From an uncultured virus (IMG/VR IMGVR_UViG_3300027867_000004) (lineage: Duplodnaviria > Heunggongvirae > Uroviricota > Caudoviricetes): a DNA stretch of 20,000 bases. The notes beneath the pieces are model-generated. The model saw only the letters and a program-made list of their open reading frames with translations. It did not search any database and was not told the origin of the DNA. The translations under genes and the position numbers were made by a program. The stretch lies in the IMG/VR virus record IMGVR_UViG_3300027867_000004. One strand, written 5' to 3'. Below, one piece after another: positions 1,171 to 17,097 of the stretch. Numbering within the stretch: the first letter of the stretch is position 1; each line of letters starts with the position of its first letter.

Positions 1171-1608
1171 ATGAAAAAATCAGCAATCCCTTTTGACTTG
1201 TATGAAGTAGTTACAAGCAAAATTTTAGCTCAGATCGAAGCTACAGGTAAACTCACTTGGGTTAAACCTTGGAACAACAAAAACGGTAATATTCCTATGA
1301 ACGGGAAAACTAAAAGGCCTTATGACGGCGTGAATTTCTTTTTACTCCAAATGTCTGGCTTTAGTTCAAACTATTGGCTAACCTATAATCAAATCACTGA
1401 AATGGGAGGCACTGTTAAAAAAGGTGAGCACGCTACACAAGTTGTGTTCTGGAAAATGAACCTTTACAAAGACGTTGATAAAAAGACAGGAGAAGAGACT
1501 GTTAAAAAAGTTCCTTTTCTAAAATATTACAACGTTTTCAATGTTGATCAGTGCGAAGGCATTATTAAAGTTAAAAACAACGTCATTACAATAAAAAAAT
1601 TAAAATGA
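1171..1608 (+). CDS. ardC: ArdC-like ssDNA-binding antirestriction protein, N-terminal (DUF1738) domain only
   Basis: Motifs WVKPW, PMNGKTKRPYDGVN, WLTYNQ, GGTVKKGEHA and YYNVFNVDQCEG; the protein ends before any metallopeptidase domain. Confidence 0.85.
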   Translation: MKKSAIPFDLYEVVTSKILAQIEATGKLTWVKPWNNKNGNIPMNGKTKRPYDGVNFFLLQMSGFSSNYWLTYNQITEMGGTVKKGEHATQVVFWKMNLYKDVDKKTGEETVKKVPFLKYYNVFNVDQCEGIIKVKNNVITIKKLK

Positions 1609-2569: not shown

Positions 2570-2641
2570 ATTTGCATTTCTCGTTTTTTATTCTAACCTT
2601 TGAATTCCCGCTCTTTCAATGGCTGTACCAAAAAATATACA

Positions 2642-2963
2642 ATGTTTACAGATGTTTACAGATGTTTACACATCAAAAATAAACATCTGTAAACATTAAA
2701 AACAGCCCTCACATCACAAATTTCACGGTTTTTTAGCAAATGTTTACAGTTTACACTTATCACGCGCGCGTGCGCACACGCACACGCGAGACACAATTTT
2801 TATTTTTAACCCTTTTAAAATAAATAAAAAAAAAATTTCTCCTATAGCGCGAAGAAAACATCTGTAAACATCTGTAAACTGTAAACATATTGCCTTATTA
2901 TATATTTAAACGCACTATTTATGTTTACAGATGTGTTTACAGATATAGCGATGTTTACAGATG
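2642..2963. repeat. Iteron array (ATGTTTACAG unit, both orientations), putative replication origin
   Basis: About 12 full or partial copies. Forward TGTTTACA at 2643, 2653, 2663, 2741, 2922, 2934 and 2952; reverse at 2688, 2863, 2873 (variant) and 2880. Non-coding and just upstream of the HTH and primase genes. Confidence 0.8.
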
Positions 2964-3007
2964 AAAATTTATTTTGTATTTTAAATAATACTTTTTAGAT
3001 TAGCCGA

Positions 3008-6444: not shown

Positions 6445-6630
6445 ATGATACTTTATACTAAGGATGAGTTATTTAATCTGCTTGAAGCAGTAGACTGTCA
6501 CTCGGACGTAATCGAAATAAATCATTATGTCCTGATCCATTGCGATGATTATCCTACGGATCTGATCTCATTGCTTTTAAGGGACATTAATTTGCTGCAC
6601 GTGTTATATTCTAATGAAGCAGATACGTAA
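6445..6630 (+). CDS. Hypothetical protein
   Basis: 61 aa, acidic; overlaps the next gene. Confidence 0.55.
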   Translation: MILYTKDELFNLLEAVDCHSDVIEINHYVLIHCDDYPTDLISLLLRDINLLHVLYSNEADT

Positions 6631-6931
6631 CAATACAATGCATTGCGCTTACTGTAAACGTAAGCTATACGGGAAAGGAACTATTGAGCATTTTTACCCA
6701 TTAGTAATGGGTGGTCCTAACAGGGTCTGGAACCGCATCATTGTTTGTAAAAGGTGCAATCATACTAAGGGCGGACATATGCCAGAGGTTTTTGTTCAGA
6801 TATTGGAAAAGAAACTTTTACGTGCTCAGGCAGCTAGTGATTATGCTGAGGACCTCCGGGATATGATAAAAAGTATCCAGAGTCTGATCCAGGAGAAACA
6901 AGATTATTTTAAAATAAAAGAGTTATTATGA
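6614..6931 (+). CDS. HNH endonuclease (Zn-binding CxxC…HNH type)
   Basis: CAYC…TIEHFYPLVMGGPNRVWNRIIVCKRCNHTKG. Confidence 0.88.
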   Translation: MKQIRNNTMHCAYCKRKLYGKGTIEHFYPLVMGGPNRVWNRIIVCKRCNHTKGGHMPEVFVQILEKKLLRAQAASDYAEDLRDMIKSIQSLIQEKQDYFKIKELL

Positions 6932-7263
6932 AAAATTTCAAAGATGTACTTAAAAAATTAAAAATCTCTCAGGAAGATTTTGATAAGGCTAATAGTGGCC
7001 TTTCCGACGATGAGGTTGCTTACAGGCAGTTAAAACTAATTGCCAAAGCACTTAATGGTGACTGGGTAGCAGATTTTTCTGATGGTAATCAGAGAAAGTA
7101 TGAACCATATTTTTACTATAGCGGTTCTGCTTTTGTGTTCAACTGCTACGACAGCTGGCTCCAGTTTACGGACGTTGGCTCGCGGCTTTGCTATAAAGAT
7201 GCTGCTACAGCTGAATTAGCTGGTAAAAACTTCATTGACATTTATAATAAATTTTTAAAATAA
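6928..7263 (+). CDS. Putative DGR target protein, paralogue 1
   Basis: 111 aa; shares LNxxW…KYxPYF…SAFVF-variable-VGSRLC…AGKxFIDIYNK with the next two genes; contains VR1. Confidence 0.8.
   Translation: MKNFKDVLKKLKISQEDFDKANSGLSDDEVAYRQLKLIAKALNGDWVADFSDGNQRKYEPYFYYSGSAFVFNCYDSWLQFTDVGSRLCYKDAATAELAGKNFIDIYNKFLK
7120..7197 (+). repeat. DGR-like variable region VR1
   Basis: agc ggt tct gct ttt gtg ttc aac tgc tac gac agc tgg ctc cag ttt acg gac gtt ggc tcg cgg ctt tgc tat aaa. Confidence 0.8.
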
Positions 7264-7703
7264 TGAAAATCCCTGTAGAAATTAATGGTAAGACGGTTAC
7301 TATCGAGCTTACTGAAGATCAGGTTGCTTTAGTTAAAAAGCACACTGGAAAGATTACGGACCGTATCAAAACTTTCCAGGATGTGCTGGAATATATTGGT
7401 CCTAAAAGAGCAAAGCAGTTTGATGACTCCTGTGAAAATTGCTCTGATCATAATATAGCGGACAAGCAGATAGAACTGATTTGCGAGGTTTTAAATGAAG
7501 GTTGGGTTGCTGATCCGTTCAATACCAGTCAAATTAAGTACTATCCGTATTTCCAGGTTAGCAGTTCTGCTTTTGTGTTCTACTACTACTACAGCTGGTG
7601 CCAGTTTACGGACGTTAGCTCGCGGCTTTGCTTTAAAAATTCTGATCTGGCTATTTATGCTGGTAAACAATTCATAGACATTTACAACAAACTATTATCA
7701 TGA
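7263..7703 (+). CDS. Putative DGR target protein, paralogue 2
   Basis: 146 aa; contains VR2 (FVFYYYYSWCQFTDVSSRLC). Confidence 0.8.
   Translation: MKIPVEINGKTVTIELTEDQVALVKKHTGKITDRIKTFQDVLEYIGPKRAKQFDDSCENCSDHNIADKQIELICEVLNEGWVADPFNTSQIKYYPYFQVSSSAFVFYYYYSWCQFTDVSSRLCFKNSDLAIYAGKQFIDIYNKLLS
7560..7637 (+). repeat. DGR-like variable region VR2
   Basis: agc agt tct gct ttt gtg ttc tac tac tac tac agc tgg tgc cag ttt acg gac gtt agc tcg cgg ctt tgc ttt aaa. Confidence 0.8.
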
Positions 7704-8116
7704 AACTTCCAATCCAGGTAAACGGTAAAACCGTAGAAATTGAACTCACCAGTGATCAGATCGATCTGGTGAAGAAAGCTAGTCAGAAAATTACTGACCA
7801 GATTAAAACTGAACAGGATGTTTACCAGGCAGCAGGCCTTACTAAATCTGCTTGGGAAAAGATGCACGTTTTTGATCAGATTGCTTTAATCTGTAACATT
7901 TTAAATGAGGGTTGGAAAGCTGACTGGAGTGATACCAGTCAATATAAATACGAACCTTACTTTAAATGGAACGGTTCTGCTTTTGTGTTCGACGACTTCC
8001 TCTGCTGGAGCCAGTCTGCGAGCGTTGGCTCGCGGCTTTGCTTTAAAAATAGTGAACTGGCCACTTATGCAGGAAAGACTTTCATCCATCTATATAATAA
8101 ATTATTGAGTTTGTAA
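7700..8116 (+). CDS. Putative DGR target protein, paralogue 3
   Basis: 138 aa; contains VR3 (FVFDDFLCWSQSASVGSRLC); N-terminus paralogous to paralogue 2. Confidence 0.8.
   Translation: MKLPIQVNGKTVEIELTSDQIDLVKKASQKITDQIKTEQDVYQAAGLTKSAWEKMHVFDQIALICNILNEGWKADWSDTSQYKYEPYFKWNGSAFVFDDFLCWSQSASVGSRLCFKNSELATYAGKTFIHLYNKLLSL
7970..8047 (+). repeat. DGR-like variable region VR3
   Basis: aac ggt tct gct ttt gtg ttc gac gac ttc ctc tgc tgg agc cag tct gcg agc gtt ggc tcg cgg ctt tgc ttt aaa. Confidence 0.8.
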
Positions 8117-8129
8117 TTTCACCGGCGCA

Positions 8130-8597
8130 ATGGGTAAGAAAAAAGGTAAGCAGCATCTTGAATCAAAAACCAAGCTGTTTGAACGCTGGGCATCAATGCA
8201 TTCCAGGTGTAAGCCAAACTGGCACAGGCATGAATCTTATTTTGATAAGGGTGTTACTGTTTGCCCTGAATGGAGCTCTTTTGTAGAGTTTAAAAAATGG
8301 GCTTTATCAAATGGCTTTGATCCGTCATTACAGCTTGACCGAAGGGATAATAACAAAGGTTATTCGCCTGATAATTGTAGGTGGATAACCCGTGGTGAGA
8401 ATAACCTAAACCGATCCAATACACTGTTTGTAGATTACGAAGGTGAAAGAATAGCATTAGCTTTATTGAGTCAGAAACTAGGATGGAACAAAAATACCTA
8501 TAATTTAGTCAGGTATAGAATTTCGCGCGGATGGCCCTTAGAGAATGCTTTGAACACTAAAGTTAGTTTTAAGGGTCAAAAGCCTGTTATTGTGTAA
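8130..8597 (+). CDS. Free-standing HNH-type phage (homing) endonuclease
   Basis: WASMHSRC…GVTVCPEW…LDRRDNNKGYSPDNCRWIT…N..N; same family as 11599-12222. Confidence 0.8.
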   Translation: MGKKKGKQHLESKTKLFERWASMHSRCKPNWHRHESYFDKGVTVCPEWSSFVEFKKWALSNGFDPSLQLDRRDNNKGYSPDNCRWITRGENNLNRSNTLFVDYEGERIALALLSQKLGWNKNTYNLVRYRISRGWPLENALNTKVSFKGQKPVIV

Positions 8598-8971: not shown

Positions 8972-9256
8972 ATGGCTGAAGCGTATATTGAGAGCAGGCT
9001 TAGAGACGCTGTAAAGCGATTAGGAGGATTAGCCATAAAACTATACGCCTATTCCTTTACAGGGCTTCCTGACAGGCTTATTTTAATGCCTGGTGGCAAA
9101 ATAGCTTTCGTAGAGACTAAATTTTCTGAAAAGAAACCCAGGCCAAGGCAATTAGCGGTTCACAGGCAGCTGGAAAAGTTGGGGTTCAGGGTGTTTGTTG
9201 TACGGACGAATGAAGATTTAAAATTATTTATAGATGAATGTATTAAGCCTTTTTGA
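8972..9256 (+). CDS. VRR-NUC domain nuclease (Holliday-junction resolvase-like)
   Basis: EAYIE…GLPDRLILMPGGKIAFVETK…RPRQ…LEKLGFRV PD-(D/E)xK motif. Confidence 0.92.
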   Translation: MAEAYIESRLRDAVKRLGGLAIKLYAYSFTGLPDRLILMPGGKIAFVETKFSEKKPRPRQLAVHRQLEKLGFRVFVVRTNEDLKLFIDECIKPF

Positions 9257-10223
9257 TGGATGTAGTTGCGCAATGATTGCACTGGATCGTGCAGGAATAC
9301 CTGTTGAGCAATATTTTGCCAGTGAAATCGATAAATATGCCATCCAGGTAAGTAAAGCCAATTGGCCGGATATTATTCATATCGGGGATGTCACCAAGGT
9401 AAGCTACTTTGAAGGTGTTCTGTATACCGAGTTCGGGCAGTATAAGGTTAGTTTTGCGGGAGGAATGATCTGCGGGGGCAGCCCGTGCCAGGGTTTTTCT
9501 TTTGCCGGCAAACAACTTAACTTCGAAGATCCGCGCAGCAAGCTGTTCTTTGAGTTTGTCCGTATCTACGAAGAGATCAAACTGGAGCATCCGGACGTAA
9601 AAGTATTTCTGGAAAACGTGATGATGAAGAAAGAATATCAGGCAGTGATCAGTAAAGCTTTGGGCATGGAATGCATAATGATAAATTCAGCATTAGTTTC
9701 TGCACAGAACAGAAAACGACTGTATTGGACCAATATTCCGTTTCAAGGCCAACCTACTGATCGGGGTATTTTGTTGAAAGATATTTTGATAGATGCAAGA
9801 GCGGTTTTAAGATGGCAAAATAAAAAACAAGGGGCGGTAATTGATTTTGAAAAGTCAGCTACTTTATGTGCCTCAGATAAAACTGGTTTATCAAAAATTC
9901 AATTCGTTATCAGAAATAAATTTTTCGATACAGAACAAAAAATCAAAAATTTTAGCCACAACCAATACGCTACCACAAATAACGGTAGAATAAGTTCATT
10001 GTCCTCTATAAAAGATAATGGGATTATTTGCAATGGATTATTCGATACAGGAGAACATATTAATCAATTAACAATGATCGAATCGGAACGGTTACAAGGC
10101 GTTCCAGATGATTATTCTAATTGTGTAAGTAAATCACAACGTTACAGAATGCTCGGAAATGGATGGAACGTGGACACTATTGTTCATTTGTTTGAACCTT
10201 TATTATATGGTGATATCTTATGA
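9234..10223 (+). CDS. DNA cytosine-C5 methyltransferase (orphan)
   Basis: Motif I LSLFDG, SEID, GDV, catalytic GGSPCQGFS, ENV, QNRKRLYW and motif X LGNGW. Confidence 0.93.
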   Translation: MNVLSLFDGCSCAMIALDRAGIPVEQYFASEIDKYAIQVSKANWPDIIHIGDVTKVSYFEGVLYTEFGQYKVSFAGGMICGGSPCQGFSFAGKQLNFEDPRSKLFFEFVRIYEEIKLEHPDVKVFLENVMMKKEYQAVISKALGMECIMINSALVSAQNRKRLYWTNIPFQGQPTDRGILLKDILIDARAVLRWQNKKQGAVIDFEKSATLCASDKTGLSKIQFVIRNKFFDTEQKIKNFSHNQYATTNNGRISSLSSIKDNGIICNGLFDTGEHINQLTMIESERLQGVPDDYSNCVSKSQRYRMLGNGWNVDTIVHLFEPLLYGDIL

Positions 10224-11608
10224 AATATTCGCCTCATCAATATCAGGTCCGGGGTACGGCCCATATTCTCGACAATGATGTCCAGGATACACGCTCCAGA
10301 GGATGCTTCTTTACTGTAGGAACAGGTAAGTCAGTGATGTCATTGACGGCTATTGTAGAGTTGCTCTCGAACATGGAGATAAACAAACCGCTCATTATCG
10401 GGCCGTCTAGGGTTGTCTCGCACACGTGGCCAAAAGAAATTAAAAAATGGGATCATACTAATTATCTGACCATTTCTGTCATTCAGCACACTTCGAATCG
10501 AGCGTCAGAACAGCAGCGCATAAAAGCTTTAAATACTTCTGCAGATATTTATGCGGTGAGCAGGGACAACATTGCATGGCTTGTGCGTTATTGTGCCAAG
10601 ACGTTTAAACGTTGGCCGTTTGATCTGCTGATTATAGATGAATTAAGCAATTATCGTAACCCGTCAACCCAACGTTTTAAAGCTATTAGAAAAATTTTAC
10701 CTTATTGCCGGCAGGTGATAGGTCTTACAGGAACTCCAGCTCCAAGCCAATTACTAGGACTATGGAGTCAGGTTTTTTTACTTGATAAAGGGAAACGCCT
10801 TGGGACTACATACGGGGCTTACAAGGATAAGTACTTTATGCCAGGTGCACGTTCAGGGCATATCGTGTACAGTTACATTTTAAAGAAAGGCGCTGAGCAG
10901 GAAATATATGATGCCATAAAGGACATCTGTATGTCCATGTCCGTTGAGGATTACTTATCGTTACCTGAACGAACCGATATTTATGAGGAAATTGAATTAG
11001 AAGATTTTGACAGGTATTTAGAATTTAAGAAAACAGAAGTTTTAAAATTTGCTGACGGACAAGAATTAACCCCTGTCAACGCTGCAGGACTTTATAATTT
11101 GCTTTTACAGTACTCTAATGGAGCTATCTACCGACACAGGGAAGATGGAAGCAGGTATTATGAAGTGATAAATGGTAGCAAGCTCGACGCTATTTGCTCT
11201 GATGTAGAAGAATTGCAGGGTGAGCCCGTACTAATCGTTTTTCAGTTCATCTCAGATTATGAGCGCCTTCAAAAAGCTATTCCGCATTTACGAAAAATTT
11301 CTACTGATCAGGACATTGATGACTGGAATAATAAAAAAATCTCTGTAGCATGTGCACAGATCAATTCTATAGCTTACGGCATCAATATGCAAGATGGTGG
11401 TCATCATCTTTTTTGGTACTCCCTGCCATGGGATTTAGAGCTATACATTCAGTTCCTGGGCCGTTTGCACAGGCAGGGGCAGCTTAAACATGTGATCAAT
11501 AAGCATTATGTAATTAAGGGGGGGATTGAGGAATTGATCCGGGAACGATTGGCTGGCAAATATAATACGCAACAGAAATTAATGGAGGCACTTAAACGTT
11601 ATTTATAA
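10220..11608 (+). CDS. SNF2-like phage helicase
   Basis: VGTGKS Walker A, IIDELS, LTGTP, GINMQ and QFLGRLHRQGQ (motif VI). Confidence 0.92.
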   Translation: MKYSPHQYQVRGTAHILDNDVQDTRSRGCFFTVGTGKSVMSLTAIVELLSNMEINKPLIIGPSRVVSHTWPKEIKKWDHTNYLTISVIQHTSNRASEQQRIKALNTSADIYAVSRDNIAWLVRYCAKTFKRWPFDLLIIDELSNYRNPSTQRFKAIRKILPYCRQVIGLTGTPAPSQLLGLWSQVFLLDKGKRLGTTYGAYKDKYFMPGARSGHIVYSYILKKGAEQEIYDAIKDICMSMSVEDYLSLPERTDIYEEIELEDFDRYLEFKKTEVLKFADGQELTPVNAAGLYNLLLQYSNGAIYRHREDGSRYYEVINGSKLDAICSDVEELQGEPVLIVFQFISDYERLQKAIPHLRKISTDQDIDDWNNKKISVACAQINSIAYGINMQDGGHHLFWYSLPWDLELYIQFLGRLHRQGQLKHVINKHYVIKGGIEELIRERLAGKYNTQQKLMEALKRYL

Positions 11609-12222
11609 TACCTTCTTATCCTTTTACTGGATATTAAATCTGTGTAATCCATATGGGGGTATTTAGTTATTCTGTAGCGTATAATTTCTCTATGCAGGCC
11701 AGATATTTCAGCGATTTGGGAAAGTGTTAATTTGCCATTAGGTGTATTAATAAAAACATTTCTTGCGGTATTTCTGCTTTGTTCCTTACGGGTAGACCAT
11801 TTACAATTTTCAGGAGTATAGTTACCGTTACTATCTATTCTATCAATAGTTAATTCAGGAGAATAAGTTGAAAACATATCTTCTTTAAAATTTAGATAAC
11901 TTTCCCATCTTTCACATAGAGAAATTCCGCGACCGCCGTACCGATCATAATGAGCAGCGGTTGGATTATTGCATCTAAGTTTCATACCTGACCAAATTTT
12001 ATAAAATCTGGTTTTATATTCACCGTGTATTTTTCTACAATTTAGAAATAAACAGCCACAACTTTTTGTTCTTCCCGATGAAATACTTACCCCTTTTATT
12101 GTAAATTCTTTTCCACAATAGCAGCTACACAGCCAATGAGATTCTTTTCCGTTTCGTGATTCAACTTCATAAAGTACGACAACGCCATTAAAAACTTTTC
12201 CTTTTAAATCTAACTTTTTCAT
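11599..12222 (-). CDS. Free-standing HNH-type homing endonuclease (207 aa from the preferred start MKKLDLKGKVF)
   Basis: WLCSCYCG…TKSCGC, IWSGMKLRC, YGGRGI and TIDRIDSNGNYTPENCKW. The ATG at 12222 is preferred to 12255, which lies inside a structured leader. Confidence 0.85.
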   Translation of the reverse strand: MKKLDLKGKVFNGVVVLYEVESRNGKESHWLCSCYCGKEFTIKGVSISSGRTKSCGCLFLNCRKIHGEYKTRFYKIWSGMKLRCNNPTAAHYDRYGGRGISLCERWESYLNFKEDMFSTYSPELTIDRIDSNGNYTPENCKWSTRKEQSRNTARNVFINTPNGKLTLSQIAEISGLHREIIRYRITKYPHMDYTDLISSKRIRRYYK

Positions 12223-12326
12223 AAAACAAAGAACCCCGATCAAAATCAACGCCATCTCACTAACGTATCATCCAAACGAGGTCTTTTTATGTTTTAAGTT
12301 CTGTTAAGTGAGACGAGAACAATAAT

Positions 12327-12334: not shown

Positions 12335-13243
12335 CTATTTTTTGTAATATTTTCCAACAAATCCGTCGGCTCGCACTCCCCAGGTTTTTGCCCACAGAGG
12401 TACGTCCAGCATGAGTTCTTTAATCCTTTCAAACGATACGCTGCCTTTAGGCACCTCAGCCACTATTTCGTCATGAACCGAAAGCACAATAGCATATCCG
12501 GCCTTCTCAATGTTAATTATTGCATGCATCAATAGATCCCGGCAAGTGGCCTGAACAAAGTTCTCCACCCATTTGCCCGAGTAACTTTTGATAGGCTCCC
12601 ATTTCTTGCTGGTCTGGTTCTGGCCCCAATAGCAAATGCTTTCACGTATGGTCGGCCTTGATCCGTCATCTTTCAACCCCAAGCGCTTCAGGTGCCAGTA
12701 GTACTCTTCCATGTTGTGCTTTTTTGCCTCGCCCACTTCTACGTGCTCTATTCTGGTGGTGTATTCCAGCTTTTCCTCATCAAATGTTTTAACAGGAATA
12801 GATGCCACATAAAACTTTCTAAAGTGTGGTTTTTGATAAACCAAGCAGCGCCCCGAGGGCAATTTCATCAATAAGTGCCCGTTTTTCATACCGAACATGA
12901 TTCCGTGTGCGACCGGCGTACTTTGTCCCGTTTTTAAAGTATTTTTTGCTGCGGCATCCGTTTCCCACCACAGTTTTACTATATTCGGATTCGCTTCCCG
13001 CCATGTTTTTATAAGTCCGGGTATCTCTTTTGAAGGAATGCGTTTGGCAGGATCTTCAATGGTGGCATTATTACGTTCCATTGCGCCGACTCCACCTGAA
13101 TATCCGCAGAGAAGTTCCGCTATTTTAGATTTTTGACGCTGGTCTTTTGTAATCTTATCAATAGGTGTGTGGAACATGATCGATCCGGAGGCTTTATAGA
13201 TGTCACCGCCCGTTCTGAAAAACTCAATCCGCCAGTGTTCATC
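12335..13243 (-). pseudogene. 5'-truncated second copy of the family-A DNA polymerase C-terminus
   Basis: Begins DEHWRIEFFRTGGDIYKASGSIMFH (GEQWRIDFFKTGGDIYKASGSVMFH in the full gene). Has motif B RQKSKIAELLCGY and motif C SVHDE but lacks the exonuclease and motif A. In-frame TGA just upstream (13256-13258). Confidence 0.88.
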
Positions 13244-13244
13244 C

Positions 13245-13391
13245 CGGATCGACCGTCAGGGAAAAATCAAACCAACTATTGTAAAGTACTTCGTGGCCAA
13301 GAATAGTATTGAACAGGTGGTAATTGAGCGATTGGCAGGGAAGTACGATACGCAGGAAAAACTTATGTTGGCGCTCAAAAGGTATTTATAA
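13245..13391 (+). pseudogene. 5'-truncated second copy of the SNF2 helicase C-terminus
   Basis: RIDRQGKIKPTIVKYFVAKNSIEQVVIERLAGKYDTQEKLMLALKRYL* aligns with RLHRQGQLKHVINKHYVIKGGIEELIRERLAGKYNTQQKLMEALKRYL*. Confidence 0.88.
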
Positions 13392-14168
13392 AATATCAGT
13401 TATATCCTGAATTTTTGCAATATAAGCATTTGCATCATCTACGTATTCCTGACTAATATCACAACCTAAAAATCTTCTTCCAACACGTTTAGCCTCGGCA
13501 CAGGTAGTTCCGGATCCCGAGAACGGGTCAAAAACAAGGTCCCCAATATTTGACCAGGTGGTAATATGATCAGCAGCTAATTGTTCCGGAAATATTGCTG
13601 GATGTGTTTTTCCGTTTCGGACTAATGAACCTGTATTATATTCAAAAATATTTCCATGATTTTTATAATCATTAATACGGTGCTTTTTATTTTTCTTTTG
13701 TAGATGATCAGTTCCATTATAAAAACTGGGATTCCCTCTATAAAAAGTACCTGCGTATTTACACGGTAATCTTAGAGGATTAAAAGTTTTTAATTTTCCT
13801 TTTACAAAAACAAACATATATTCAAATTCTTGCTCATACCGATTATGATTGGTTGGTATGAAATTTAGCTTTCTATAAATCATGGTATCATGTAGTTTAA
13901 AACCACAATTTATAAAGTATAACGCTTGTCTAAAGGAGCTACCGCTCTCAGAACCATTTACTGTTTGATCACCGACTACCCACACTAACACACCCCCCCC
14001 CGTATTAGTTATTCTGAATAAATTTTTTGCAGTACGTTCAAAGTCAAATATAAAGCCATTATATTTGCGTTGGTTATCATAAGGTGGTGAAGTAATTGTT
14101 AGATCAATACAGCTGTCATTCAGGCCGGCCATAAAGTCATTACATTCTGAGCAAATTATTTTATTCAT
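13386..14168 (-). CDS. DNA amino-methyltransferase, beta class (N4-C/N6-A)
   Basis: Catalytic TSPPY N-terminal, HPAIFP, and SAM-binding DPFSGSGTT C-terminal. Confidence 0.93.
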   Translation of the reverse strand: MNKIICSECNDFMAGLNDSCIDLTITSPPYDNQRKYNGFIFDFERTAKNLFRITNTGGGVLVWVVGDQTVNGSESGSSFRQALYFINCGFKLHDTMIYRKLNFIPTNHNRYEQEFEYMFVFVKGKLKTFNPLRLPCKYAGTFYRGNPSFYNGTDHLQKKNKKHRINDYKNHGNIFEYNTGSLVRNGKTHPAIFPEQLAADHITTWSNIGDLVFDPFSGSGTTCAEAKRVGRRFLGCDISQEYVDDANAYIAKIQDITDIL

Positions 14169-16357
14169 TATTTCATGTAATAATCTCCAATAAAGCCGTC
14201 AGCTCTAACCGGCCACCAAGCACACCAATCTGGTAACTGAAGCATGATCTTTTTTAACTGTTCAAGAGTAAGCCCTAGACTTTTTAATACCTCAGCCACA
14301 AACTCATCGTGTACGGTTAATACTACCGGATAACCTGCTTTTTCTACATTCATTACTGAGTGCATCAGTAAATCTCGACAAGCTGCCTGAACCAGATTTT
14401 CAAAAAATTTTGGCCCATATGTTTCAATCACTTTCCATATCCCGTCCATCCCATAAAAACATACAGTTTCCCGTTTACCAGGTTTAGGCCTTTCGTAAGT
14501 TAAACTGAACTCTTTTAAGTATTCATGAAAACCGCTGGTATTATAAGCAAGTCCAGCTCTTTTGAGCAGGTATTGATATTCCTCGGGCGTATCTTTTTGT
14601 ACTTTGCCAATCTTAACTGATAAGAACTTTACGAAAGGTTTGTTATCTTCATCAAAATGAATTTTTGGTACGATCTTACCATCTACCACATGTATATCAG
14701 GTACTTTAGCTATATAAAATTTTTGCAGAAAAGCTTTTTGATAAACCAAATATCGACCTGAAGGCAATCTCATTAGTAAGTTACCATTTTTCATGCCGAA
14801 AGCAACACCATTTTTAACAGGGACAGTTTGGTTAGTATTAATAGCAAGCTTCGCAGCTGCGTCCATATCCCACCACATCTGTACAATAGCGGGGTTAGCC
14901 TCACGCCAGGTTTTGATCAGTCCTGGAATTTCTTTTATAGGAATACGTTTTTTAGGATCTTCGATGGTATCGTTATTCCGCTCCATTGCTCCGCTGGATC
15001 CCCCGAACTGACACAATAATTCTGCAATTTTACATTTTTGCCGAATGTCTTTGGTAATTTTATCTATTGGTATGTGAAACATTACTGATCCGGAAGCCTT
15101 GTAGATATCACCACCTGTTTTAAAGAAATCAATTCGCCATTGTTCACCGGCCAAACATGCCGCGGCAAGACTTTCAATACTTGAAAAATCTAATACAACA
15201 AATTCTTTACCTGGTGCAGCGATAAAAGTAGGCCGTAACATTTGTGAGAGTATATTCGAAAGATTTGGAAATACCATATGCAAGCTGTCCACATCACGGT
15301 GTTTTACTAATTCCCGGGTATTATCTAGGAAACTAAAAGAGTCCTGAAACATATCTTCCAATCGCGGGAAATTTTGTGGCTGCGGGCCCCGGCCCGCCTC
15401 CCTGCCCGTCCGGTTAGCGCCGTAGTACTGGATCATGCCCCGGACTCGCTGATCATGGCAGGCCCCAAACTTTAAAGCCAGGTATTTGGTGATACTGGAT
15501 TTAGCCATCAGCTGCCGTATAGATAAAATACGCTTTACATCCGGGTCTTCCTCATCCAGCAGCATCTGCCGCACGGCCAGTTTATTTAAAGTAGTAACCT
15601 CTTCCTCCATTTCAGCGGAGAGCCACTCTTTTAGCTGCTTGGGTGAATTGACATTTGAAAGTCCTGTAAGCGCGGTTGCCTCTTCAATCAGTTCTTCTCT
15701 ATAGGCTTTATTGATCACAATAGCGGAGTCAACTAACTGCATATCCACCATTACCCCACGTTCATTCTTTCGTTCATTCAGACACCATATATGATGCTCG
15801 GATGCTGGAATTTTATACCACTGACAGGCCTTATCCACATTCTGCTCAACAACAACGTCCTGGCCGTTATAAGACTTAAACTGTTCCCATTTCTCAGGAT
15901 CGTGCTCAGGTAGATTCCTGGTTCGCATACTGTTCGCCTTGGTAGGTGTACAAGGCATACAGAAATACCGGATCAGTGATTTACCAATAGGGTCTTTTTT
16001 CTCAATCAAACCTAACGCTTTACTGGCGTCATCCAAACTGAGCGGTAATCCGCACATTGCTGCCCGGGCCTGGGTGCATTCCCACTGCTCGGGCGGTGAG
16101 TAAATGCCTAAGGTAATATTCAGGTAATTCCGTTCGTAAGGGGCATTGAAGGCCTTTTTGATATAATCAGGATCCGTCAATGCAGAGCGCAGCCAGGCAG
16201 GAATTTTTTGTCTGGTCAGATCAAGCACTACAACGGGCGCGTAGTCCAGTGAATAAGCCAGCAGGATGATCTCACCAGATTCAGCCCGTTTATAGACACC
16301 ATACTTAATGTCCACCGGACTATAATCTTCAATATCTAAGCTAAGAATATGTTTCAT
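14168..16357 (-). CDS. polA: Phage family-A DNA polymerase with 3'-5' exonuclease
   Basis: ExoI LDIE, AFNAPYE, RTGR…QPQNFPR, motif A DFSSIE, motif B RQKCKIAEL, ENLVQA and motif C TVHDE. Confidence 0.93.
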   Translation of the reverse strand: MKHILSLDIEDYSPVDIKYGVYKRAESGEIILLAYSLDYAPVVVLDLTRQKIPAWLRSALTDPDYIKKAFNAPYERNYLNITLGIYSPPEQWECTQARAAMCGLPLSLDDASKALGLIEKKDPIGKSLIRYFCMPCTPTKANSMRTRNLPEHDPEKWEQFKSYNGQDVVVEQNVDKACQWYKIPASEHHIWCLNERKNERGVMVDMQLVDSAIVINKAYREELIEEATALTGLSNVNSPKQLKEWLSAEMEEEVTTLNKLAVRQMLLDEEDPDVKRILSIRQLMAKSSITKYLALKFGACHDQRVRGMIQYYGANRTGREAGRGPQPQNFPRLEDMFQDSFSFLDNTRELVKHRDVDSLHMVFPNLSNILSQMLRPTFIAAPGKEFVVLDFSSIESLAAACLAGEQWRIDFFKTGGDIYKASGSVMFHIPIDKITKDIRQKCKIAELLCQFGGSSGAMERNNDTIEDPKKRIPIKEIPGLIKTWREANPAIVQMWWDMDAAAKLAINTNQTVPVKNGVAFGMKNGNLLMRLPSGRYLVYQKAFLQKFYIAKVPDIHVVDGKIVPKIHFDEDNKPFVKFLSVKIGKVQKDTPEEYQYLLKRAGLAYNTSGFHEYLKEFSLTYERPKPGKRETVCFYGMDGIWKVIETYGPKFFENLVQAACRDLLMHSVMNVEKAGYPVVLTVHDEFVAEVLKSLGLTLEQLKKIMLQLPDWCAWWPVRADGFIGDYYMK

Positions 16358-17097
16358 AAAATAGTTTTAATGAACTCGTCAAACTTGCTTTCGTGTATAA
16401 ATAATTTTTCTGTACTTTCTTTGGCCGCTCTGTTATACATACCATTTTGAGATAAAGTTCCTTTAAGCTTACCTTCCCAAATACTGATAAAATCGACTGG
16501 GGCCTGATATTCTGAAATGAATACCCAGTGATTGGTACTTTTTGTTCTACAATAATCCCAGAATTTAATATGATCAAATTTAACTCTATAACCAGTAGTG
16601 TTTTTATACGGCGGGTCACAGTAGATAACAGAATGATCAGGTATCGGTACCTGGTCGTAAGAGAGAGAGAGGAAGGTAGTGGTTTGTAATTTATTTATTT
16701 GTTTAAGTACATTATTTTTTGCTTCTTGTTGATAATTCCTAATAGTTTGACCCTCATGGTAACCAGCAAAACCAGAAAAGGGTTTTCCTGAAAAGCTACA
16801 GCAGAATTGAGCATAGCCAACTAACTCAGGTTCATAAAAATCTTGATTTTGCCAGATGTCATAATATTGTTCTTTGTCGATATATTCTGGGGGCAACCAG
16901 CCATTTTGAAGTGCTTTCCATAAGGCAATTAAGGATGTGTTCACATCATTAGCTATTTTTAAAGGATGATTAATTTTATCAATTAAATTACATCCTCCAC
17001 AAAATAATTCAACATAATATTGCTCAGCGGACAAATTTTCAATAATAATAGGAATGATATATTTAGCGATTCTACGCTTTGAGCCCATGTATTTCAT
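16354..17097 (-). CDS. Dam-like (D12, alpha class) DNA adenine methyltransferase
   Basis: KYMGSK, ELFCGG, ANDVN, YCDPPY and FISEY. Confidence 0.92.
   Translation of the reverse strand: MKYMGSKRRIAKYIIPIIIENLSAEQYYVELFCGGCNLIDKINHPLKIANDVNTSLIALWKALQNGWLPPEYIDKEQYYDIWQNQDFYEPELVGYAQFCCSFSGKPFSGFAGYHEGQTIRNYQQEAKNNVLKQINKLQTTTFLSLSYDQVPIPDHSVIYCDPPYKNTTGYRVKFDHIKFWDYCRTKSTNHWVFISEYQAPVDFISIWEGKLKGTLSQNGMYNRAAKESTEKLFIHESKFDEFIKTIL

What the first reader, a model, noticed from the sequence alone, without database searches (positions are those of the whole stretch)
6928..8116. The diversified proteins look intracellular and non-structural: possible hypervariable counter-defence binders
Seen: 111-146 aa, no signal peptide or fibre repeats, translationally coupled within an early/replication operon among HNH, VRR-NUC, MTase and helicase genes. 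The variable residues are rich in aromatics and Cys and precede a fixed (G/S)SRLC(F/Y)K motif. Paralogues 2 and 3 share an extra N-terminal segment (MKxPxxxNGKTVxIELTxDQ) that paralogue 1 lacks. Established: the best-characterised phage DGR target (Bordetella BPP-1 Mtd) is a receptor-binding virion protein. Inference: this may be a small repertoire of variable binders aimed at host intracellular proteins such as defence systems, possibly as hetero-oligomers.
Basis: inference. Interest (0 to 1): 0.75.

Follow-up and report, generated by a model that had tools for sequence, protein, structure and literature searches.

The report
Orphaned hypervariable phage genes beside HNH
Three small phage genes were once rewritten by a targeted mutation device whose engine now seems replaced by a selfish nuclease gene; they belong to a very large family of non-tail proteins of unknown function that may bind targets inside the host cell.

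Summary
Three coupled paralogues share a 72-nt block with the signature of a diversity-generating retroelement (DGR): 0 of 72 third-position differences, and 22 of 22 mismatches to a relative's template repeat (TR) fall on adenines. An HNH endonuclease starts exactly where close relatives carry TR-RT; the same swap recurs in a second phage and, with a different HNH, in a gut phage group. The repertoire is probably frozen; 51.7 kb of the contig were not seen. The family (phrog_11581, about 5,000 clusters at 50% identity, Bacteroidota phages) is already catalogued as cluster PC_00007, 'non-structural/unknown', by Roux 2021. Non-virion location is supported by gene context (about 75%). The predicted fold, mainly helices plus one hairpin, matched no solved structure. 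Counter-defence itself has no direct evidence (about 35%), was proposed before for Quimbyvirus, and the aromatic bias is largely intrinsic to the RT. Oligomers remain untested. This scan noted both small tandem targets and an HNH replacing a DGR engine before, on other DNA.

The parts
6614..6931 (+). HNH endonuclease (HNH_5 type) upstream, overlapping the start of target 1
   Evidence: Pfam HNH_5 E 2.7e-08; overlap
6928..7263 (+). DGR target 1, 111 aa, core domain only (phrog_11581; Roux PC_00007 family)
7120..7191 (+). Variable repeat 1
   Evidence: 7 of 7 mismatches to the 40-nt partial TR of L006 at adenines
7263..7703 (+). DGR target 2, 146 aa, N-terminal hairpin-helix extension plus core
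   Evidence: AlphaFold2 mean pLDDT 88.5
7560..7631 (+). Variable repeat 2 (residues 100-123: second hairpin strand and following loop in the model)
   Evidence: 6 of 6 mismatches at adenines
7700..8116 (+). DGR target 3, 138 aa, N-terminal extension plus core
7970..8041 (+). Variable repeat 3
   Evidence: 9 of 9 mismatches at adenines
8117..8129 (+). 13-nt spacer that precedes the TR in relatives; homology to L001 ends at window 8128 = L001 10864, the first bases of its TR
8130..8597 (+). Free-standing HNH endonuclease (phrog_3377) in the place of TR-RT
   Evidence: E 2.4e-40; 58% identical to the HNH at the same position in L007

Best explanation
These are three target genes of a Bacteroidota-phage DGR, left behind when a free-standing HNH endonuclease gene took the place of the TR-RT module. 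SHOWN: one shared template wrote the three variable repeats by adenine-specific mutagenesis; relatives carry targets-TR-RT; here and in two other phage groups an HNH gene begins at the 5' edge of the TR. INFERRED: the HNH spreads by homing (cutting the DGR-bearing allele in mixed infections, with repair from its own copy), which freezes the repertoire. INFERRED: the proteins are made with the replication genes, stay in the infected cell, and use the variable hairpin strand and loop as an antibody-like surface to bind a fast-changing protein. The most likely class of ligand is a host conflict protein (defence sensor or effector, or a host-takeover target); two or three paralogues give two or three specificities or one composite site.
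For: VR signature. 22 of 22 mismatches to the partial TR of L006 at A; against the full L001 TR 13 of 17, 12 of 17 and 15 of 19 at A, with the same 4 non-A positions in all three VRs. Of 85 viral-set loci including the window: RT adjacent 56, HNH adjacent 16 (window, L007, 14 gut loci), neither 9, too short 3, RT elsewhere 1; of 76 genome loci: RT adjacent 53, elsewhere 4, none 17, short 2. L007 keeps a 16-nt TR stub before its HNH; the gut group keeps about 14 nt, its HNH being a different NUMOD4 type. Complete HNH-type genomes G014 and G015, and G003 (98%), hold no RT at all. In the gut group 0 of 105 RT+ locus pairs share an identical VR against 10 of 231 RT-less pairs. Context: 0 of 69 annotated neighbours (121 tested, 23 dereplicated loci) were tail genes; in G006 the TR has no other target. 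Variable positions take 14-15 residue types including charged ones, as an exposed surface would.
Against: No ligand evidence of any kind; no PADLOC hit. 51.7 kb of the 71.7-kb source contig were not visible, and Roux lists members of this family as remote targets of DGRs elsewhere in a genome. HNH adjacency was 0 of 76 in genome loci, and 8 of 37 gut loci lost TR-RT without an HNH, so homing is not the only route; 0 of 80 loci found with the window's HNH carry targets, so that HNH family is not specialised for DGRs. The frozen-repertoire test is weak: among pairs with near-identical constant regions only 7 of 26 RT-less pairs share a VR, and only 2 RT+ pairs qualify; duplicates may be one strain sampled twice. 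6 neighbours in 4 of 23 loci are head or packaging genes and 52 of 121 had no hit. A 28% relative in phage Versailles is annotated 'tail protein' and 1 of 111 family members hits a tail PHROG at 1e-05. Solvent exposure could not be measured: no coordinates are returned.
Confidence: 0.55

Rival explanations
1. The binders act in phage-versus-phage conflict or lysogeny control (superinfection exclusion, blocking a rival phage's replication or regulatory protein) rather than against host defence.
For: Many carriers are prophages or have integrase, repressor or Mu-like transposase neighbours; HNH swapping implies frequent mixed infection. PMC10053308 (passages) raises cytosolic DGR binders of viral proteins as a hypothesis.
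Against: The genes are coupled to replication genes rather than placed in a separately transcribed moron; no direct test.
Confidence: 0.2
2. They are small virion proteins (minor head, neck or tail adhesins) encoded out of place, doing what most phage DGR targets do.
Confidence: 0.15
3. The DGR is still active here: TR and RT sit elsewhere on the unseen 51.7 kb, and the HNH is an ordinary insertion.
For: Remote targeting occurs in this family (L003; Roux table rows). The rest of the contig could not be read.
Against: Homology to L001 and L006 runs to the TR start and stops. None of the 11 proteins in the four closest RT clusters (76-91% to L001's RT) is listed on a contig of the window's contig length (weak). 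Complete relatives with the analogous swap have no RT.
Confidence: 0.12
4. The genes are near-neutral cargo of a selfish element and bind nothing that matters.
For: The engine is often lost; no phenotype is known.
Against: All three ORFs are intact and coupled; the scaffold is strongly conserved around the VR across about 5,000 clusters; targets persist after engine loss and relatives without a DGR exist in crAss-like phages.
Confidence: 0.08

Closest known systems
Roux et al. 2021 target cluster PC_00007 ('Phage_other', viral, FCB hosts, DGR clade 1) = PHROG 11581
   Same: Same family: two targets filed under PC_00007 carry the very VR peptides of my locus L074; internal VR at about 0.7-0.77 of the length; classed non-structural/unknown.
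   Different: In what I read no structure, context, function or loss of the engine is described for it. Whether a C-Lec fold was detected for this cluster is shown only in figures I could not see.
Quimbyvirus second DGR target (Benler et al. 2021, PMC8008677, passages)
   Same: Phage DGR target far from structural genes, near methyltransferases and a nuclease; a role in phage-host conflict was proposed on the same grounds.
   Different: Described as a C-type lectin domain protein, single and remote from the RT; homology to the present family was not tested.
Bordetella BPP-1 DGR (mtd-avd-TR-brt)
   Same: Adenine-specific TR-to-VR mutagenesis, AAC-rich template, RVT_1 enzyme in relatives.
   Different: Targets are 110-160 aa, 2-4 in tandem, VR followed by about 22 codons; order is targets-TR-RT-accessory; the 100-aa accessory ORF has no Avd match.
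Free-standing phage homing endonucleases (HNH/NUMOD4; mechanism recalled from T4 seg/mob genes)
   Same: HNH gene occupies an allelic position to a conserved module in near-identical phages.
   Different: The displaced unit is a whole TR-RT-accessory module; cleavage was not tested.
Toutatisvirus DGR hotspot (bioRxiv 10.1101/2024.10.15.618418, passages)
   Same: Targets persist in phages that lack the DGR engine.
   Different: DUF6273 lectin-like receptor-binding targets; no HNH replacement mentioned in the passages read.

Membership tests
DGR target gene | Variable repeat differing from a template only at template adenines | tested here: met
   22 of 22 mismatches at A against the 40-nt partial TR of L006; 0 of 72 third-position differences
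Complete, active DGR at this locus | Template repeat in cis | tested here: not met
   Only the three VRs match in the 20-kb window; the rest of the contig was not available
Complete, active DGR at this locus | Reverse transcriptase in cis | tested here: not met
   RT profile finds none in the window; elsewhere on the contig inconclusive
Complete, active DGR at this locus | Adenine-specific variation among reads | tested here: inconclusive
   Only assembled contigs of one run, possibly the source; no differences listed
PC_00007 / phrog_11581 | Sequence membership | tested here: met
   All three hit phrog_11581, 111 of 111 aligned relatives too; L074 VR peptides identical to PC_00007 entries
C-type lectin-fold DGR variable proteins | CLec fold around the VR | tested here: inconclusive
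Phage receptor-binding tail proteins | Encoded in the tail module | tested here: not met
   Replication operon in window and G006; 0 of 69 annotated neighbours are tail genes
Phage receptor-binding tail proteins | Present in the virion | not testable with these tools
   Needs proteomics
Anti-defence proteins | Binds or inhibits a host defence system | not testable with these tools
   No ligand known; PADLOC (defence systems, not anti-defence) gave 0 hits for 3 of 3
Free-standing homing endonuclease | HNH domain at an allelic site absent from relatives | tested here: met
Free-standing homing endonuclease | Cleaves the endonuclease-free allele | not testable with these tools
   Needs a cleavage assay

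The most novel reading that the evidence does not exclude
PC_00007 is a scaffold for DGR hypervariation distinct from the C-type lectin and Ig folds: a helical body presenting one variable hairpin and loop. Thousands of Bacteroidota phages use it as an intracellular antibody-like repertoire against host defence proteins, served by an RT with an SSB-like accessory in place of Avd, and homing endonucleases repeatedly parasitise the engine and freeze the repertoire.
Probability: 0.22. Interest if true: 0.9.

Novelty: new variant of a known kind. Interest (0 to 1): 0.6.

Why it matters
Phage DGRs are read almost wholly as tail-fibre tropism switches. This family is one of the largest exceptions, already counted but never explained. 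If its proteins are intracellular binders on a non-lectin fold, phages run somatic-hypermutation-like adaptation against targets inside the cell, and finding the ligand would expose a fast-evolving host function in Bacteroidota. Near-identical gut phages with the engine, with an HNH instead, or with neither give natural controls for what diversification is worth. The orphan state also means RT-centred DGR surveys undercount such targets. A 110-aa cytoplasmic scaffold that tolerates massive variation could serve for directed evolution.

Full report
OBSERVATION. The three ORFs exist as described and overlap each other's start and stop codons. They sit on the + strand after a VapE primase, a NUDIX hydrolase and an HNH, and before a second HNH, VRR-NUC, C5 methyltransferase and SNF2 helicase; PolA and two more methyltransferases follow on the other strand. 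They are 45-58% identical. A 24-codon block is shared with 21, 14 and 0 pairwise differences at codon positions 1, 2 and 3 (of 72 each), none synonymous, while the flanks differ at 34 of 57 and 32 of 63 third positions. That is what one template with adenine-only mutagenesis leaves.

THE FAMILY. All three hit phrog_11581 (unknown function) and no Pfam family above cut-off. A profile finds 5,003 clusters at 50% identity (3,434 at 1e-10) and at least 548 matches in IMG/VR. Carriers among genomes are almost all Bacteroidota by record title, the closest three being Sphingobacteriaceae. Relatives show targets-TR-RT: a TR was found in 56 of 57 RT-bearing viral loci (the miss was a parsing failure) and in 0 of 28 RT-less ones by that scan, L006 having a partial TR at its contig end. 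In 91 unique VR-TR pairs, pre-filtered to at most 2 non-A mismatches, 1,152 of 1,665 template adenines differ against 25 of 3,795 other bases. Cassettes with adjacent RT hold 1, 2, 3 or 4 targets in 5, 93, 8 and 3 of 109 cases; 8 of the 14 longer relatives are tandem two-domain fusions. Roux et al. 2021 (PMC8144416; passages, sections 8-9, supplementary files 2, 5, 9-12 in part) already list the family as target cluster PC_00007, 'Phage_other', non-structural/unknown, 1.6% predicted structural.

THE MISSING ENGINE. The window has no TR and no RT. Against its closest complete relative (L001, genome G006) the window aligns at 77.6% from 7259 to 8128 and stops at the first bases of L001's TR; the HNH starts at 8130. 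The window's VRs differ from L006's 40-nt partial TR at 7, 6 and 9 places, all adenines, so the lost template was of this kind. L007, whose target is 49% identical, has the same arrangement with a 58% identical HNH and a 16-nt TR stub. In a gut phage group about 97% identical in DNA, 15 of 37 loci have TR-RT-accessory, 14 have a NUMOD4-HNH in its place (one truncated) with about 14 nt of TR left, and 8 have neither. Of 10 RT-less records searched whole, 9 have no RT, including complete genomes G014, G015, G005 and the 98% complete G003; G004 has a 58% identical RT elsewhere, which also shows that the search works. These gut loci are redundant and count as one or two events. So replacement by an HNH happened at least twice with different HNH types. 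Homing is the inferred mechanism (recalled from T4-type free-standing endonucleases), not shown. Against generality: 0 of 76 genome loci show an adjacent HNH, with profiles built only from my own three HNH types. The source contig is 71.7 kb and the window covers 27,051-47,050 of it; the rest was not readable.

STRUCTURAL OR NOT. Among 121 neighbours (three nearest ORFs of 150-900 aa each side, 23 dereplicated loci), 69 had a PHROG hit at 1e-12: primases, helicases, recombinases, methyltransferases, integrases, regulators, Mu-like transposition proteins; none tail; 6 head or packaging in 4 loci. Of 6 longer ORFs tested afterwards, one is a tape measure across an integrase and switch region; two are primases and three match an unnamed family. 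In G006 terminase, portal, head and lysis genes lie on the other strand, and its TR matches only the two small genes; the same holds in G008 apart from a 350-base gap not scanned. In phage Versailles a 28% relative lies between NinB and the replisome organiser, though labelled 'tail protein'. No signal or membrane segment. I put non-virion, intracellular action at about 75%.

FOLD. AlphaFold2 on target 2 (111 sequences): pLDDT 88.5, pTM 0.76; N-terminal hairpin and helix (the extra segment), helices 31-77, hairpin 92-100/103-112, a low-confidence loop 111-120, two C-terminal helices. The variable codons fall in the second hairpin strand and the loop, and take 14-15 residue types at most of these positions. 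No solved structure matched; predicted relatives are uncharacterised viral proteins, several from crAss-like phages. The secondary structure differs from the recalled CLec pattern of about five strands and two helices, but Roux expects unassigned VR domains to be new CLec variants, and no control was run, so this is inconclusive.

RESIDUE BIAS. Tyr, Asp, Gly, Phe and Ser dominate 437 mutated AAY codons; Tyr is 87 against 69 expected, Cys 18 against 34. PMC12875486 (passages) shows that the RT by itself turns AAC mostly into Tyr, Ser and Asp. Aromatic richness therefore says 'DGR', not 'which ligand'.

MECHANISM AND ODDS. DGR targets 97%; engine lost at this phage about 85%; loss by homing about 60%; intracellular about 75%; ligand a host defence protein about 35%, another host protein about 15%, a rival phage's protein about 20%. 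The counter-defence idea rests on context alone and was put forward for Quimbyvirus on the same grounds (PMC8008677, passages). Targets outlasting their engine were noted for Toutatisvirus. Other papers seen in passages only: PMC5758913 (plus section 14 part 1), PMC12386605, PMC12694917, PMC12636319, PMC10053308, bioRxiv 10.1101/2024.11.15.621889.

VERDICT. Real and well supported as DGR targets; the family is catalogued but unexplained. What is added here is the replication-operon context, a confident model without a solved match, the non-Avd accessory in relatives and the repeated HNH-for-engine swap. New variant of a known kind; interest 0.6.

Noticed in passing
L002:12373-12681 and equivalents downstream of the RT in related loci: A ~100-aa ORF overlaps the RT stop in 98 of 104 RT loci; no Pfam or Avd hit; ESM Atlas links it weakly to Phi29-type SSB (44% of one cluster), to PF28814 and to RT fusions. 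Possibly a non-Avd DGR accessory protein. L001 lacks it.
   Followed up: partly
window 12335-13177 and 14168-16357 (- strand): A second, 280-aa copy of the C-terminal part of PolA (71% DNA identity) lies downstream of the full gene, next to another HNH (11599-12255); a 66-nt helicase 3' end is also duplicated (11543-11608 and 13326-13391). Looks like a further recombination or homing scar.
   Followed up: no
window 2632-2980: Direct and inverted 10-nt repeats (perfect 24-nt arms 188 nt apart) just upstream of the primase operon: probable replication origin or operator array.
   Followed up: no
window 1171-1608: ArdC N-terminal domain only (145 aa; E 4e-35): an anti-restriction-related fragment, the one recognisable counter-defence gene in the window.
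   Followed up: no
window 9234-10223, 13386-14168, 16354-17097: Three DNA methyltransferases of three types (C5, N6/N4, D12-class).
   Followed up: no
L003:703-1230 and 9887-10369; G010: One TR serves an adjacent and a remote target 9 kb away; the genome holds 4 family members.
   Followed up: partly
L001:10297-10373; L034; L071: VRs with whole-codon deletions or insertions relative to the template.
   Followed up: no
L085 (G004:C1:5424-6401): A second RT, 58% identical, with 3 TAG codons inside, in an HNH-type gut record: recoding or decay.
   Followed up: no
P0262, P0259: Family domain fused to an Lcl_C lectin-like domain and to DUF285 repeats.
   Followed up: no
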